DNA from: the human T2T-CHM13v2.0 reference genome, Homo sapiens
Direction: 5' to 3' (one strand)
Length of the DNA stretch: 64,000 nucleotides
Assembly: GCF_009914755.1 (NCBI RefSeq)
Contig: NC_060941.1
Below, piece after piece: positions 13,398 through 17,534 of the stretch (position 1 is its first letter; each line of letters opens with the position of its first letter). A program made the position numbers and the translations under genes. The notes beneath the pieces were generated by a model, which was given only the letters and a program-made list of their open reading frames with translations, was not told the DNA's origin and did not search any database.

Positions 13398-13893
13398 AAA
13401 AAATGTGAACAGTCGTTTCACAAAAAATATTCAAATAACCAATAAAAATATAAAAAGGAGCTGAACATCACAAGTCATCAAGAAAAGGCAATTGAATACC
13501 TAATAAAACACTACTACAACCCATTAAAATGGCTACAATAGGGAAGATTGATAATACCATGTATTGATGGAAATATAGAGCAAAAGGAAATCTGATATGT
13601 TGCTGGAGGAAAGTTTGCAAAACTGTTTAGTGCTTTGTGATAAAAGTAAACATATGTTTACCCAATGACCCAGAAATCCCACTTCTAAGTAAGTATTTCA
13701 ATCAATGTATTCCTATATGCATAAAAAGATTGGAACAACAGTGTTCATCACAACTTTATTCATAACAGCAGAAAACTAGAAGCATTTCAAAGATCTAGGA
13801 GAATGGATAAAGTGTGGCGTATTCATCAAATGGAATATTACCTAGCAATAAACACAACAAAAAACTGACATTTTTTTAAAATTACATTGAGCA

Positions 13894-14145
13894 GCTGGAG
13901 TGCAGTGGCGTGATCTCGGCTCACTGCAACCTCTGCCTCCTGGGTTCAAGTGATTTTCCTGCCTCAGCCTCCCAAGTAGCAGACTACAGGCGCACACCAT
14001 CACACCCAGCAATTTTGGTATTTTTAGTAGAGATGGGGTTTCACCATGTTGGCCAGGCTGCTCTCGAACTCCTGGCCTCAGGTGATCCGCCTGCCTCAGC
14101 CTCCCAAAGTGCTGGGATTGAAGGCATGAGCCACCGCGCCTGGCC
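13894..14145 (-). mobile_element. Alu lacking its 3' end and poly-A tail
   Basis: Alu sequence begins abruptly at GCTGGAGTGCAGTGG; no tail and no TSD of its own. Confidence 0.92.
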
Positions 14146-14950
14146 TGTAATAACTTCATAACCATAGTAAAGTTATTTTAGAGCTCTCTTTGAAGGAAAC
14201 ACATTTTGATTGATTAAATATCTGAAACTTCAGAAAGCCTACATTTTTCTTCCTTAACCATGTGACATTAGTGTGAGTGGAAACCAAGAGTATAAAGCTA
14301 AGCCCTATGTACTAAAGAAATAACATAAGTTAACCTATTACTACCACATCTTACATTTGGATTTAAATACGAAAAACACAACACAGAAAACAGAAACTTT
14401 TTTTTTTTTAATTAAGATCATAAATAGGTCATTGTTGTCACAACACATTTCAGAATTTTAAAAAAACAAACATTTTGGCTTTCTAAGAAAAAAGACTTTA
14501 AAAAAAAAGTCAATTCCCTCATCACTGAAAGGACTTGTACATTTTTAAACTTCCAGTCTCCTAAGGCACAGTATTTAATCAGGATGCCAATATTACCACC
14601 CTGCTGTAGCAGGAATAAGAGGCAAGGTATTAGCACCAAGAAAAACAGCAAAATTTCTGGACAAAATCATCTGTCATTAAAAAACAAGAGAGAGAAAAAG
14701 ATAGACTAAGTGGTAAGCATTTTAATGAAGAAGGTCCAGTGTTGTTATTCAGTACTTTCTGTTAAAAAAAAAAAAAAAAAGAAATCGAAGTATTTTAACT
14801 CAAGTAGGTTTAATTCACCACAAAAGAGCTATGAGAAAAGAGAGGGGGTTGGTAAAATACAGTATACTTTCTTTAAAAAGGACTTGGGAGGAAAAAAATC
14901 AGCTTAGAAGATCATATGAAAGGGCAAACATCGCATGGAACCCAGTTAGT

Positions 14951-15442
14951 GTCCTAGTTTATTACTAGTCTTCAGACAGATCCAGAAAATAGAGTAAGAT
15001 ACTAGGTAAACATAACACCTAGATACATCCGTAAGGCATTTGTTTCCTATCACATGGCCCATTCTAGCTTAACACCCACCAACTGAGATATAGTGAAATA
15101 CTAAAATTGAATGCTCAGATTATATTTTTATCCAACCAAAAAGTTCTTTAAATATAAAATTAAAAATTCCTCACTTAAAAAAATTTCTCATCACTGGTCA
15201 TCAGAGAAATTTTTCTTAAGTGAGGAATTTTTTAATTTTATATTTAAAGAACTTTTTGGTTGGATAAAAATATAATCTGAGCATCCAATTTTAGTATTTC
15301 ACTATATCTCAGTTGGTGGGTGTTAAGCTAGAATGGGCCATGTGATAGGAAACAAATGCCTTACGGATGTATCTAGGTGTTATGTCTACCTAGTATCTTA
15401 CTCTATTTTCTGGATGTCTGAAGACTAGTAATAAACTAGGAC
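14951..15442. repeat. Long near-perfect inverted repeat (arms 14951-15189 and 15204-15442, 14 nt loop)
   Basis: Arms are reverse complements with about 5 differences over ~238 bp. Confidence 0.97.
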
Positions 15443-15538
15443 GAGTTAATGGGTGCAGCAAACCAACATGGCACATGTATACATATGTAACAAACCTGCA
15501 CGTTGTGCACATGTACCCTAAAACTTAAAGTATAAAAA
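15440..15538 (+). mobile_element. L1PA 3'-terminal ~100 bp with A tail
   Basis: GACGAGTTAATGGGTGCAGCA...ATGTACCCTAAAACTTAAAGTATAAAA. Confidence 0.92.
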
Positions 15539-17534
15539 AAAATTTCACTGAGCATAAGACTTCAGACACAAAAGAGTGCATGCCATATAATTCCATTTAT
15601 GTGAATTTCAAGAACAATCAGTGATGACAGAAGTCAAAGTAGTGGTCACCTCTGGAAGGTGGGACATTGACCAATAAATATTTCTTATGTGTATCATAGC
15701 ATCAAGCATCACTTATTGTCCCAGTAAAATAGACTAAATGCCAAATAGCACTGTATGGTCATAGATAAGTTCTAGTTCTCCCATTTAACGGAACACTATT
15801 CAATCATTAAGAAATTCAGTTATGGACATATGTAAAATGACTTTTGACATAGCATTAACTAACAAACGGAGACCAACATTTATCCAGTAAAATTCCTAAT
15901 ATGCTCACATGGAAAGAAAAAAAGAACAACAGAAATTTTACTGTGATTCTGTGTCAACATTGAGTGTACATGTTGTTTTATAATATTTTTATGATTTTTG
16001 AGATATACTTTTCAAGAGTTCTAAGTCATCGTACATTATTTTTAAAAACATAAATGTGTTTCTACAAAACGCTGCTCCAACAGAAAAGCTTCTGCTTCTT
16101 TGCTTATTCTTAGTACCAGCATGTGCTGAATACACGGTTGTTCCTGTTGGCATTTTCCACTTGGTCATGGGAAGGGGCAGCTCCAGGCAACCCCCCTCGG
16201 AGTTCCCCAGAAGGAAAGGGCAGCAGAAGCTAGAAATGTAAACAACTAAAATGATGATGCAACAACTGGTAAGATGCGAAGTCCCCACTGGAGAGGAAGA
16301 TGGTACACCTCAATTTGTCTGGGACAACCCTGGTTTATTCCTGTCTGGCTTGCAAGATAAAGTATATAATAGTTCTCATACAGAGGAGAGCCCTTATGGC
16401 TTCTTAGACACTCATATCATAAGTAAGTATTCATTTTTGACTGTGTGCTTGTCCAGAGAATGCCCAGAAAAGGGACTGGATTTTCTAGAGTAGAAGCAGT
16501 AAAGCTTGCCCTGGGAGGTGACCAACAATTTATTTCAGATTTGGCCTCCTTTGACATCTGTGTAGTTTGAGAAGTCTTCATAAATGAGACATGATTTATA
16601 CCAGGTCTCAAATGATTCCTGTTTGGGAAGGAATTACAGGTTGATGGAATATTATAAGCAATGCATATAGTGATGGATATAAGAACTGCAGGTGGTATGA
16701 AGGAAGAAGTAAGGAAGTGGTCTTGTAATGTTTTCATGGGCAATGCATGGGTTTTTCTCCCCCAGCATACCAATGGATGTCTCCTCTTCTGCAGGCTTGC
16801 CTTTCTGGAGAGATTCAGCCCTGGAGGCTGAACATATTGATTAGTGCTGGCTTCCTCCCCTTTTCAGTAGCCACTCCAGCAGTTAGACATGTTTCCTATA
16901 AAATGAAAAATTTGCACCATCGTGGTGCTCCTCAGAGCCTTAACAAGTGAAATGAGATAAACAGGGAAAAGTAAAGGCACAAGGTGCCCCAGCTCTGCTT
17001 CCCTGAGCAGTTTTGGTTTTAATCTGTTACGTCAGAACTTACCAATAAGTTACTCCTTGAGAATAGACTTTAGAAGGTAAACAAATATCTGAAAACCACA
17101 ACATTACATACATTTGCCAACACTATTATGTTACTCTCTAAGATTGTGGGCACTAAGATTGCCTAGTACTATAGTGGGCAAGATGGCAGGATGCTTGGGT
17201 TCTAAGATTCTACAGCAACATAATGATTCTAAAATAACAGGATTCTATAGATCTTGGAGACTTCTGTTATATAAAGATTATTGGGTTGGGAAACAGCTGG
17301 CTGAACTTCTACTCTAGACATAACTGCATTACTAACATAGGACCTTCGAAAGTTCTCACTCTGATTGGTGAACCAGGGTAGATTTTCAGGTCTTCATAGG
17401 ACATCATCCATTCAGAACCATCAGCAAATAATCCCAGAAGGTCTCTATTTCTTTCCCCAGTACAGAGTCTCCCTGATTTATGGCAGCAGGTTCTTCTGGA
17501 AAAGGCATGGAAGAAGATTTATAGTATTAGACCT

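What the first reader, a model, noticed from the sequence alone, without database searches (positions are those of the whole stretch)
13878..15554. Single TSD-bounded L1 chimera that captured a foreign gene 3' end through several template switches
Seen in sequence: an old L1M 3'UTR is broken at a TTTTTTT/AAAA site, with a 16 bp duplication (14/16 identical; 13878-13893 vs 15539-15554). Between the TSDs, in order: a tail-less Alu (13894-14145), ~250 bp of unique DNA, a ~790 bp AT-rich 3'UTR-like segment (minus sense), an L1 ORF2 snippet, a 238 bp plus-sense copy of the same segment, and ~100 bp of L1PA 3' end with an A tail. The junction to the L1 tail has GAC microhomology (15440-15442). Established knowledge: L1 ORF2p cuts TT/AAAA, primes by TPRT, can switch templates (U6-L1 chimeras) and can twin-prime to give 5' inversions. 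Inference: one event in which RT started on L1 RNA, jumped to a cellular RNA, briefly returned to L1 RNA, and was joined to a second cDNA primed further downstream on the same cellular RNA. This layout is not a standard 3' transduction, processed pseudogene or simple twin-primed L1.
Basis: partly seen in the sequence, partly recalled or inferred. Interest (0 to 1): 0.85.

Follow-up and report, generated by a model that had tools for sequence, protein, structure and literature searches.

The report
L1 chimera carrying inverted P4HA1 3'UTR
An old L1 jumping-gene insertion upstream of CCL13 copied in about 1.5 kb from the tail of the chromosome 10 P4HA1 messenger RNA, partly in both orientations; it is an unusually tangled but explicable product of known L1 copying errors.

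Summary
Window 13893-15180 (Alu, "unique" DNA, AT-rich segment) is colinear with one stretch of chr10 (7.7% substitutions, even across segments). That stretch lies 245-1506 nt past the stop codon of the chr10 prolyl 4-hydroxylase alpha gene (P4HA1; name recalled), in antisense. The 239-nt sense arm covers 245-463 nt past the stop. The spacer is a 23-24 nt L1 ORF2 piece from about 640-660 nt upstream of the L1 tail. The flanks are adjacent L1M sequence with a 16-bp duplication and a TTTTTTT/AAAA site.

One target-primed event combining template switching and top-strand (twin) priming on a foreign RNA is the best reading.

- Both arms stop at the same donor nucleotide and share about 10 nt absent from the donor.
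- The arms differ at 3 substitutions where about 17 are expected.

So both cDNAs ran off one RNA 5' end, or one arm was copied from the other. The arms were then homogenised, or the sense arm is a recent duplication.

No primate orthologues could be searched, so one event versus two steps stays open. All components are known: I rate it a new variant of a known kind, of moderate interest.

The parts
13640..13877 (+). Left flank: 3' region of an old L1M element, ending in TTTTTTT (13871-13877), the T side of the TTTTTTT/AAAA endonuclease site
   Evidence: 40 paralogous genome matches at 66-88% identity; sequence read
13878..13893 (.). 5' copy of the 16-bp target site duplication AAAATTACATTGAGCA
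   Evidence: 14 of 16 identical to 15539-15554; single copy in L1M paralogues
13894..14145 (-). Alu fragment in minus sense, complete at its head. It lacks the last 25 nt of the Alu body and the 14-nt A-rich tail that the donor's Alu has. It is part of the donor RNA, not its own insertion, and top-strand priming started here.
   Evidence: Colinear with donor L002 1244-1497, 22 substitutions in 252; 1-nt (A) overlap with the TSD end
14146..14397 (-). Non-repeat DNA lying between the donor's Alu and the AT-rich 3'UTR, antisense
   Evidence: Contiguous in the donor, 8.1% substitutions; only the window and the chr10 locus match in the genome
14398..14950 (-). Antisense copy of the chr10 P4HA 3'UTR, non-duplicated part. 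The T12 run at 14398-14409 is internal, not a poly(A) tail.
   Evidence: Donor flanks continue on both sides of the T run; 7.6% substitutions
14951..15189 (-). Left palindrome arm: antisense copy of the donor 3'UTR 245-463 nt past the stop codon, plus about 10 nt (AAAATTTCTC) not found in the present donor
15187..15210 (+). L1 ORF2 snippet in sense (23 nt exact to the commonest L1PA form; 24 nt exact to 30 genome copies, this locus among them). Its central 14 nt (15190-15203) form the palindrome spacer. It derives from about 640-660 nt upstream of the L1 tail, near ORF2p residue 1100.
15204..15442 (+). Right palindrome arm: sense copy of the same 3'UTR stretch. It ends 7 nt after the donor's only canonical AATAAA within 2.3 kb of the stop codon.
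   Evidence: 92.8% to donor L002 2493-2287 on the minus strand; three-way alignment; signal scan
15440..15538 (+). L1PA 3' end (about 94 nt) with a short A tail; GAC at 15440-15442 is shared with the 3'UTR arm
15539..15554 (.). 3' copy of the target site duplication AAAATTTCACTGAGCA
15555..15800 (+). Right flank: continuation of the same L1M 3' region
   Evidence: Adjacent to the left-flank homology in 3 of 3 paralogues where both flanks are detectable

Best explanation
A single L1 ORF2p target-primed reverse transcription event inserted a composite cDNA into an old L1M. This happened roughly 17-25 Myr ago; the date is inferred from 7.7% copy-donor divergence and recalled neutral rates.

Shown:
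- A TTTT/AA-type nick site, a 16-bp TSD, and an L1PA 3' end with an A tail next to the 3' TSD.
- All foreign DNA comes from one contiguous stretch of the 3' region of the chr10 prolyl 4-hydroxylase alpha gene (P4HA1 by recalled map position).

Inferred path:
1. The bottom-strand cDNA copied about 96 nt of L1 RNA.
2. It moved at GAC onto the P4HA1 3'UTR RNA and copied about 219 nt, to a point 245 nt past the stop codon.
3. It moved back onto L1 RNA about 620 nt upstream of where it had left, and copied about 24 nt.
4. The top-strand end primed inside the sense Alu embedded in a long P4HA1 3'UTR or read-through RNA. It copied about 1.26 kb up to the same point (twin priming on a foreign RNA).
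5. The two cDNA ends joined at CTC/GAG.

Both arms stop at the same donor nucleotide. I therefore think that point was the 5' end of the RNA fragment(s), so both cDNAs ran off it. I rank equally well a snap-back: the top strand folds on a 14-nt loop, copies 239 nt of itself, and then rejoins the L1 cDNA at GAC.

The resulting 492-bp palindrome has since been kept about 99% symmetric by arm-to-arm gene conversion.
For: - Donor contiguity and one orientation for 13893-15180.
- Even divergence across segments: Alu 8.7%, unique 8.1%, UTR 7.6%, arm 6.4%.
- Symmetric lineage changes in the Alu part: 11 on the donor lineage, 10 on the copy lineage, 1 unresolved, polarised with 8 other Alus. So there was no hypermutation, and all parts have one age.
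- The donor lies about 60 kb downstream, in gene sense, of P4Ha_N exons on the same strand. It follows an exon ending ...SNKWLHERGQEFRRPCTLSELE*, which matches the C-terminus of P4H alpha-2 in PDB 7zsc_A.
- No internal TSDs or poly(A) tails. The T12 run is internal to the donor alignment.
- TSD, endonuclease site and L1M empty-site continuity.
- The L1 snippet and the L1 tail have the same orientation. They lie about 640-660 nt apart in intact elements: 6 of 6 loci and 6 of 20; the other 14 lack the ORF2 region.
- Microhomology at every junction.
- The L1 tail and the TSD are compatible with the same age. The tail has 0-1 private changes in 96 nt against about 3.7 expected (P about 0.12). The TSD has 2 of 16 mismatches.
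- Published precedents: inverted, 3'-truncated cellular RNA copies joined to 5'-truncated L1 by twin priming, and triple chimeras (passages of PMC4476161). Antisense mRNA/L1 chimeras are read as twin priming (sections of PMC13174262).
Against: - The arms show 3 private substitutions against about 16.9 expected if they had diverged since a roughly 20-Myr-old insertion (P 4.5e-5). The model therefore needs an extra process, gene conversion in a 239-bp palindrome, which was not shown here.
- About 10 nt at the inner end of both arms, an 8-nt insertion and a TCTG duplication are shared by the arms but absent from today's donor. Their origin is unassigned: an ancestral donor state, L1-derived GAGAAAT, or later symmetrised slippage.
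- The overlap at the TSD/Alu junction is only 1 nt.
- Classic twin priming uses one RNA and gives little overlap between the inverted and direct parts. Here the overlap is 219-239 nt, and the inverted part lies mostly 3' of the direct part on the donor RNA.
- No orthologous empty site was examined.
Confidence: 0.6

Rival explanations
1. Two steps. The original insertion held only the inverted P4HA1 cDNA, the ORF2 snippet and the L1 tail. The 239-bp sense arm was added within the last few Myr by a DNA-level snap-back (fold-back replication or repair) that copied the neighbouring left arm.
For: The arms are about 99% identical while each is 6-7% from the donor: 13 shared versus 3 private substitutions. 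Shared derived indels are present in both arms. The arm is bounded by GAG on both sides (15204-15206 and 15443-15445). Self-annealing small hairpins that yield inverted duplications are described for L1-induced breaks (passages of bioRxiv 10.1101/2024.12.14.628481).
Against: Removing the arm leaves ORF2...CAGAG joined to TTAATGGG. The L1 identity that continues into the arm on both sides would then be coincidence, roughly 1 in 16,000. That identity is AAAT after CAGAG and GAC before GAGTTAAT. Three small indels between the arms are many for 2-4 Myr, although they lie in slippage-prone runs.
Confidence: 0.2
2. Retrotransposition of a pre-formed chimeric RNA. L1 and P4HA1 3'UTR pieces were joined beforehand by RNA ligation, trans-splicing or a lost L1 insertion in the donor, and the chimera was copied with ordinary twin priming.
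For: It would explain why both arms carry the same GAGAAATTTT junction next to the ORF2 snippet. RNA-level joining is one published route to L1 chimeras (Figure 7 legend of PMC13174262).
Against: No splice-site signature lies at either junction. The present donor has no L1 at that point. One linear RNA cannot carry the 3'UTR stretch followed both by the L1 tail (right arm) and by more 3'UTR (left arm). At least one switch or a second RNA is still needed.
Confidence: 0.07
3. Independent nested insertions (an Alu, a processed P4HA1 fragment, a short L1) that only look TSD-bounded by chance.
For: The TSD copies differ at 2 of 16 positions, and the window is rich in repeats (hub annotation).
Against: The Alu is 3'-truncated and tail-less, and it is contiguous with its flanks in the donor. 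There are no internal TSDs or A tails. Divergence is uniform. L1M paralogues show a single copy of the duplicated 16-mer.
Confidence: 0.04
4. An assembly artefact: a fold-back chimeric read built into the assembly.
For: Near-perfect palindromes are a known artefact class of long-read data (recalled).
Against: The arms differ at 3 substitutions and 3 small indels. The palindrome is embedded asymmetrically between more 3'UTR on one side and an L1 tail on the other, with microhomology. The spacer is a genuine L1 ORF2 piece.
Confidence: 0.02

Closest known systems
Template-switch chimeric retrocopies (U6/L1, mRNA/L1; Buzdin-type; catalogue of Law & Burns 2026, PMC13174262)
   Same: A cellular RNA copy in sense is fused upstream of a 5'-truncated L1 3' end. 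One TSD pair surrounds the whole. There is an ORF2p endonuclease site and an A tail only at the L1 end (right arm plus tail; paper sections read).
   Different: The captured piece is an internal 3'UTR stretch, not a full small RNA or 5' exons. Of the 17 mRNA/lncRNA chimeras in that paper, 15 map to transcript starts and most carry near full-length L1. Here the L1 part is about 96 nt. The reverse transcriptase also appears to return to L1 RNA.
Twin priming (Ostertag & Kazazian 2001; paper not held; described in PMC2912911 and PMC4476161)
   Same: An inverted 5' part and a direct 3' part lie inside one TSD, with microhomology at the inversion junction (CTC).
   Different: The inverted part comes from a different RNA than the poly(A)-primed L1. 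It overlaps the direct part by 219-239 nt and lies mostly downstream of it on the donor RNA.
Twin-priming chimeras on foreign RNAs (U5, U1, U2 snRNA/L1; Doucet et al. 2015, PMC4476161)
   Same: A 3'-truncated, inverted cellular RNA copy is followed by a 5'-truncated L1. There is a TSD, and the endonuclease site reads correctly only in L1 orientation. Reverse transcription initiated internally on the foreign RNA (here).
   Different: Here the foreign RNA is a 1.26-kb stretch of an mRNA 3' region containing an Alu. The same RNA also appears in sense.
Triple chimeric retroelements (Gogvadze et al. 2005, 2007; seen as a passage in PMC4476161 and the listing of PMC2104539)
   Same: More than one template jump is inferred inside one insertion.
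   Different: The published triples are head-to-tail copies of three RNAs. This one alternates L1, mRNA, L1 and adds an inverted copy.
Inverted duplications from self-annealing hairpins at L1-induced breaks (bioRxiv 10.1101/2024.12.14.628481)
   Same: A small hairpin with 2-3 nt of homology primes a copy of the adjacent strand, giving an inverted duplication next to a TPRT insertion. The 14-nt loop and CTC/GAG here fit that picture.
   Different: There the duplicated DNA is genomic flank, in tumour or cell-line clones. Here it would be freshly made cDNA in a fixed germline insertion.
Palindromic AT-rich repeats (PATRR11, 17, 22)
   Same: A near-perfect palindrome several hundred bp long with strong hairpin potential. 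PATRR sizes of about 190-600 bp come from the abstract start of PMC1851657.
   Different: PATRRs are over 90% AT and have no spacer (passage of PMC4940405). This one is 68% AT with a 14-nt spacer. No instability is known for it.

Membership tests
L1 ORF2p-mediated (TPRT) insertion | Target site duplication of about 7-20 bp flanking the whole insert | tested here: met
   16 bp, 14 of 16 identical; a single copy in 3 of 3 informative L1M paralogues
L1 ORF2p-mediated (TPRT) insertion | Nick at a TTTT/AA-like site, read in the orientation of the A-tailed end | tested here: met
   TTTTTTT|AAAATT at 13871-13883
L1 ORF2p-mediated (TPRT) insertion | A tail abutting the 3' TSD | tested here: met
   An A run at 15534-15542 follows the L1 end ...AAAGTATAA; it is short, and 4 of its As belong to the TSD
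Template-switch chimeric retrocopy | Foreign RNA copy in the same orientation, directly 5' of a 5'-truncated L1, with no TSD or A tail between them | tested here: met
   Right arm 15204-15442 joined to the L1 tail at GAC
Template-switch chimeric retrocopy | The 5' partner reaches the 5' end of its RNA, as in full-length U6 copies | not testable with these tools
   The arm starts 245 nt past the stop codon. Whether an RNA 5' end lay there cannot be seen from DNA.
Classic twin-primed (5'-inverted) L1 | Inverted and direct parts are neighbouring stretches of one L1 RNA | tested here: not met
   The inverted part is P4HA1 3' region. It overlaps the direct P4HA1 arm by 219-239 nt and extends 3' of it.
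Twin-priming chimera on a foreign RNA | A 3'-truncated inverted cellular RNA copy next to the 5' TSD, a 5'-truncated L1 next to the 3' TSD, and an endonuclease site valid in L1 orientation | tested here: met
   The copy starts 25 nt plus a 14-nt tail short of the donor Alu's 3' end. L1 tail and site as above.
L1 3' transduction | Unique DNA lies downstream of the L1 poly(A) signal and ends in a second A tail | tested here: not met
   All foreign DNA lies 5' of the L1 tail
Processed pseudogene | A spliced mRNA copy ending in the mRNA's own poly(A) tail | tested here: not met
   No coding exons. The copy runs through the T12/A-run region into downstream DNA and an Alu.
PATRR | More than 90% AT and no spacer | tested here: not met
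   68.3% AT and a 14-nt spacer; criteria from PMC4940405

The most novel reading that the evidence does not exclude
The event created a 492-bp palindrome out of freshly made cDNA, and its arms have been kept about 99% alike for roughly 20 Myr by intra-palindrome gene conversion. L1 twin priming or snap-back on a captured mRNA would then be a natural source of long-lived, hairpin-prone palindromes in primate genomes. A bolder form adds a second claim. The sense arm would be a run-off copy of a discrete 3'UTR-derived RNA spanning from 245 nt past the stop codon to the proximal AATAAA site. That would make it a fossil of a 3'UTR fragment caught in a germline L1 particle.
Probability: 0.35. Interest if true: 0.5.

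Novelty: new variant of a known kind. Interest (0 to 1): 0.35.

Why it matters
This is a fixed, fully resolved germline example of a rare combination. L1 reverse transcription appears to have left L1 RNA, copied a cellular 3'UTR, returned to L1 RNA, and been joined to a second, oppositely primed copy of the same cellular RNA. All four junctions are preserved.

Such cases set limits on how often, and at what kinds of sites, ORF2p switches templates in vivo. The sites in question are microhomology, RNA ends and embedded Alus.

It also shows a route by which retrotransposition can create a near-perfect palindrome. If primate comparisons show conversion, it gives a dated test case for concerted evolution of short palindrome arms.

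It has no evident bearing on the neighbouring chemokine genes. RefSeq lists no functional element here (hub annotation).

Tried and rejected
- A genome search with the 99-nt L1 tail returned nothing, not even the window itself, because common words are skipped. I replaced it with pattern counts.
- The Ostertag & Kazazian 2001 paper is not held. Twin priming is cited from passages in PMC2912911 and PMC4476161.
- In print? A full-text search for P4HA1 + chimeric + LINE-1 + retrotransposition found 0 papers.
- In print? Law & Burns 2026 (PMC13174262) has no P4HA1 in the main text or in its 4 held spreadsheets, and spreadsheet 4 has no chr17 row at all.
- A phrase search for chr17 coordinates gave 0 hits, possibly only because of the colon.
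- Part 13 of mmc4 (Alu/L1 chimeras) has no row between chr17:33.83 and 35.47 Mb. The hg38 position of this locus, about 34.34 Mb, is my estimate. The chr17 rows of spreadsheets 1 and 2 and the three PDF supplements were not read.
- 3' transduction, processed pseudogene and nested insertions were rejected (see the membership tests).
- A poly(A) tail at the T12 run (14398-14409) was rejected, because donor homology continues on both sides.
- An intron boundary at the inner arm end was rejected, because the donor 3'UTR is continuous from the stop codon.
- I could not settle whether L1 identity extends left of 15187 into the A run. Right-justified by eye against the L1 context lines, 8 of 16 positions match, or 9 of 13 if one ATC unit is slipped. 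This is low-complexity sequence, so it is not informative.
- I could not name the L1PA subfamily without a repeat library. From recalled diagnostics (CCCTAAAACTT, GGTCATC) I guess L1PA3-6.
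Full report
**What is there.**
- An old L1M 3' region is interrupted after TTTTTTT (13871-13877).
- The 16-mer AAAATTACATTGAGCA (13878-13893) recurs as AAAATTTCACTGAGCA (15539-15554), 14 of 16 identical.
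- Between the two copies, in order:
  - a minus-sense Alu without its 3' end (13894-14145)
  - 252 bp of non-repeat DNA (14146-14397)
  - an AT-rich stretch (14398-15189)
  - a 14-nt spacer (15190-15203)
  - a 239-nt inverted copy of 14951-15189 (15204-15442)
  - about 94 nt of L1PA 3' end with a short A run (15440-15538)
- The inverted repeat scores 187 nt at 99% plus 28 nt at 100%, or 98% over 239 nt.
- As single-stranded DNA, 14940-15455 folds into one hairpin of -261 kcal/mol. Shuffles average -41, z is -45, and 0 of 100 fold as well.

**The L1 pieces are real.**
- The 24-mer at 15187-15210 occurs once in the window, with 0 expected. It occurs 15,741 times in the genome at <=2 mismatches, against 0 for the reversed control. 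Thirty copies are exact, this locus among them, and the commonest form differs only at the first base.
- In 6 of 6 fetched loci the 24-mer lies in the frame ...[17 protein letters not shown].... The tail homology follows 646-660 nt downstream.
- One such frame matches LINE-1 ORF2 protein residues 996-1158 of 1275 at E 2e-86. This places the snippet near residue 1100.
- Among 20 L1 copies that share the exact first 48 nt of this tail, 6 still have the ORF2 region, 639-645 nt upstream. The other 14 have none within 900 nt.
- The tail's first 48 nt have 66 exact genome copies. Most one-mismatch copies read GCACACC where this one reads GCAAACC; 3,281 copies lie within one mismatch.
- The tail's second 48 nt are identical to a very common form; 6,330 copies lie within one mismatch. 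The tail therefore carries 0-1 private changes.

**The target site.**
- The left flank has 40 paralogues at 66-88% identity.
- Of the 29 paralogues fetched, only 3 also show the right flank at E <= 1e-3. In all 3 it is on the same strand, 16-38 nt from the projected junction.
- The alignment shows a single ...T(T/A)AGCA before AAAGA..CAGACA.
- The other 26 loci say nothing either way.
- This supports a true duplication of 16 bp of L1M sequence. It is not a substitute for an orthologous empty site.

**The donor.**
- A search of the window's own genome with 14146-15189 found one other locus, chr10:73,878,349-73,879,353, at 90% identity.
- BLAST of the wider region shows that window 13893-15180 is colinear with L002 1243-2505 in one piece. 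The Alu, the "unique" DNA and the AT-rich stretch are therefore neighbours in the donor.
- The sense arm, 15234-15442 in the BLAST hit, matches L002 2493-2287 on the opposite strand at 92.8%.
- On the donor's minus strand, just upstream, an exon ends ...SNKWLHERGQEFRRPCTLSELE*. This matches the C-terminus of prolyl 4-hydroxylase alpha-2 in PDB 7zsc_A at E 7.9e-6.
- P4Ha_N domain exons lie about 60 kb further up on the same strand. The only other genomic hits to that domain are on chr5 and chr11.
- I call the gene P4HA1 from recalled map positions.
- Positions on the gene's sense strand, counted from the stop codon:
  - captured RNA: about +245 to about +1506
  - embedded sense Alu: +1253 to +1545
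  - only canonical AATAAA within 2.3 kb: +451
  - sense arm: ends at +463, 7 nt after that hexamer
  - AATAAA/ATTAAA cluster: +2389 to +2416. This would make a long 3'UTR that contains the Alu (inference; no transcript annotation was available).

**One age for all foreign parts.**
- Copy and donor differ at 97 of 1,258 aligned bases (7.7%), with 11 gap events.
- By segment the figures are Alu 8.7%, unique 8.1%, non-duplicated UTR 7.6% and left arm 6.4%.
- I polarised the 22 Alu differences with 8 other Alus from the window. Eleven changes fall on the donor lineage, 10 on the copy lineage, and 1 is unresolved.
- Both lineages therefore drifted equally, and the copy was not hypermutated.
- With recalled neutral rates of 1.5-2.2e-9 per site per year, this gives roughly 17-25 Myr. 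That is compatible with a mid-age L1PA subfamily (recalled diagnostics; not tested).
- The tail's 0-1 changes in 96 nt, against about 3.7 expected, are unremarkable (Poisson P about 0.12). So are the 2 of 16 TSD mismatches.

- Donor homology in both arms stops at the same nucleotide, CCTCACTTAAA / TTAAGTGAGG. Both arms then share about 10 nt (AAAATTTCTC / GAGAAATTTT) that the present donor lacks.
- Both arms also share an 8-nt insertion and a TCTG duplication relative to the donor.
- In 219 ungapped three-way columns:
  - 203 are identical in all three sequences
  - 13 are shared by both arms against the donor
  - 3 separate the arms
- If the arms had drifted independently since insertion, about 16.9 differences would be expected. 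Poisson P for 3 or fewer is 4.5e-5.
- Two independently made cDNAs would not be expected to end at the same base. A 20-Myr-old pair of arms would not be expected to be 99% alike.

**Most likely mechanism.** The shown facts fit one TPRT event.
1. The bottom-strand nick at TTTT/AA primed on L1 poly(A).
2. After about 96 nt the cDNA moved to the P4HA1 3'UTR RNA at GAC. The next bases are also similar: GACACTAACTGGGT in the donor versus GACGAGTTAATGGGT in L1.
3. It copied about 219 nt, then moved back to L1 RNA about 620 nt upstream of where it had left. The two templates share CAGAG there, and the insert continues with the L1 bases AAAT. It copied about 24 nt.
4. The top-strand end (...GAGCA-3') primed inside the Alu of a longer P4HA1 RNA with a 1-nt overlap. 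It copied about 1.26 kb.
5. The two 3' ends joined at CTC/GAG.

There are two equally economical ways to account for the common end point:
- (a) Position +245 was the 5' end of the RNA fragment(s), so both cDNAs ran off it. The first cDNA then jumped, as reverse transcriptases do at template ends.
- (b) The sense arm is DNA-templated. The top strand, after pairing with an L1 cDNA that reached ORF2, snapped back on a 14-nt loop and copied 239 nt of itself. It then rejoined the L1 cDNA at GAC. This is the kind of self-annealing described for L1-induced breaks.

I cannot separate (a) from (b) from this sequence, and I give them about 0.35 and 0.25. Either way the arms were identical at birth. They must since have been homogenised by hairpin- or conversion-based repair. 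This step is inferred, not shown.

**Main rival.**
- The sense arm could be a recent DNA-level inverted duplication. At 3 substitutions in 2 x 219 nt, it would date to a few Myr.
- It explains the arm identity without conversion.
- It makes the L1 continuity into the arm on both sides a coincidence of about 1 in 16,000. That continuity is AAAT after CAGAG and GAC before GAGTTAAT.
- I give it 0.2.
- A pre-formed chimeric RNA, nested insertions and an assembly artefact are less likely (see Rival explanations).

**Comparison with what is known.**
- Template-switch chimeras, twin priming, twin priming on foreign RNAs, and triple chimeras from double jumps are all published.
  - Doucet et al. 2015 (PMC4476161, passages) describe inverted, 3'-truncated snRNA copies next to 5'-truncated L1. 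They also cite triple chimeras in human and mouse.
  - Law & Burns 2026 (PMC13174262; abstract, sections 11, 13, 17 and 20, four spreadsheets) list 17 mRNA/lncRNA-L1 chimeras. They read the antisense ones as twin priming.
- This locus is not in their tables as far as I could read them. P4HA1 has 0 hits in the main text and in 4 spreadsheets. Spreadsheet 4 has no chr17 row. There is no row near the estimated position in the Alu/L1 table. The chr17 rows of spreadsheets 1 and 2 and the PDF supplements were not read.
- A full-text search for P4HA1 with L1 chimera terms found nothing.
- What is unusual here is the combination: L1, then mRNA, then back to L1, plus an inverted copy of the same mRNA that overlaps the sense copy. 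The result is a 492-bp palindrome with an L1 ORF2 spacer.
- The palindrome is not a PATRR. It is 68% AT with a 14-nt spacer, against more than 90% AT and no spacer.

**Verdict.**
The donor and the single bounded insert are supported. The path needs the additions above, and one event versus two steps awaits primate orthologues.
- This is a new variant of a known kind, of moderate interest.

Noticed in passing
L002 673-890 versus L002 about 2040-2250 (chr10 donor locus): The P4HA1 3' region contains a second copy, at 87% identity, of a roughly 220-bp piece of its own 3'UTR. It lies about 1.36 kb further downstream in the same orientation. It includes the ATTAAA plus T-run context seen at +597 and +1957 nt past the stop codon. 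This is a local duplication in the donor, present once in the window copy (14703-14913).
   Followed up: partly
window 15427-15442; L002 2294-2299: The L1 tail is joined 7 nt after the only canonical AATAAA in the first 2.3 kb of the donor 3'UTR, at a CA dinucleotide in the donor. A proximal cleavage end might have served as the acceptor 3' end for the template jump. No A tail is present at the junction.
   Followed up: partly
window 15169-15232: The palindrome centre holds small A/T-only insertions relative to the donor: about 6-9 nt next to the spacer and TTTTTAAT 18 nt further out. Both arms share them. GAGAAATTTTT and GAGGAATTTTT lie 18 nt apart. This could be slippage later symmetrised, or the ancestral donor state.
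   Followed up: no
window 14398-14409 and 14765-14781: The T12 and A17 runs in the copy correspond to T7A6 and A13 in the donor. Homopolymer growth after insertion made the T12 run look like a poly(A) tail in minus sense.
   Followed up: yes
L002 1205-1243 (chr10): The donor Alu is in the gene's sense orientation and keeps an A6GA7 tail. Top-strand priming started 25 nt upstream of that tail. An embedded sense Alu might have helped bring this mRNA to ORF2p. This is speculation and was not tested.
   Followed up: no
G000:C2:202790280-202790309: A 30-nt exact match to window 14755-14784 is only the A-run region and carries no information.
   Followed up: yes
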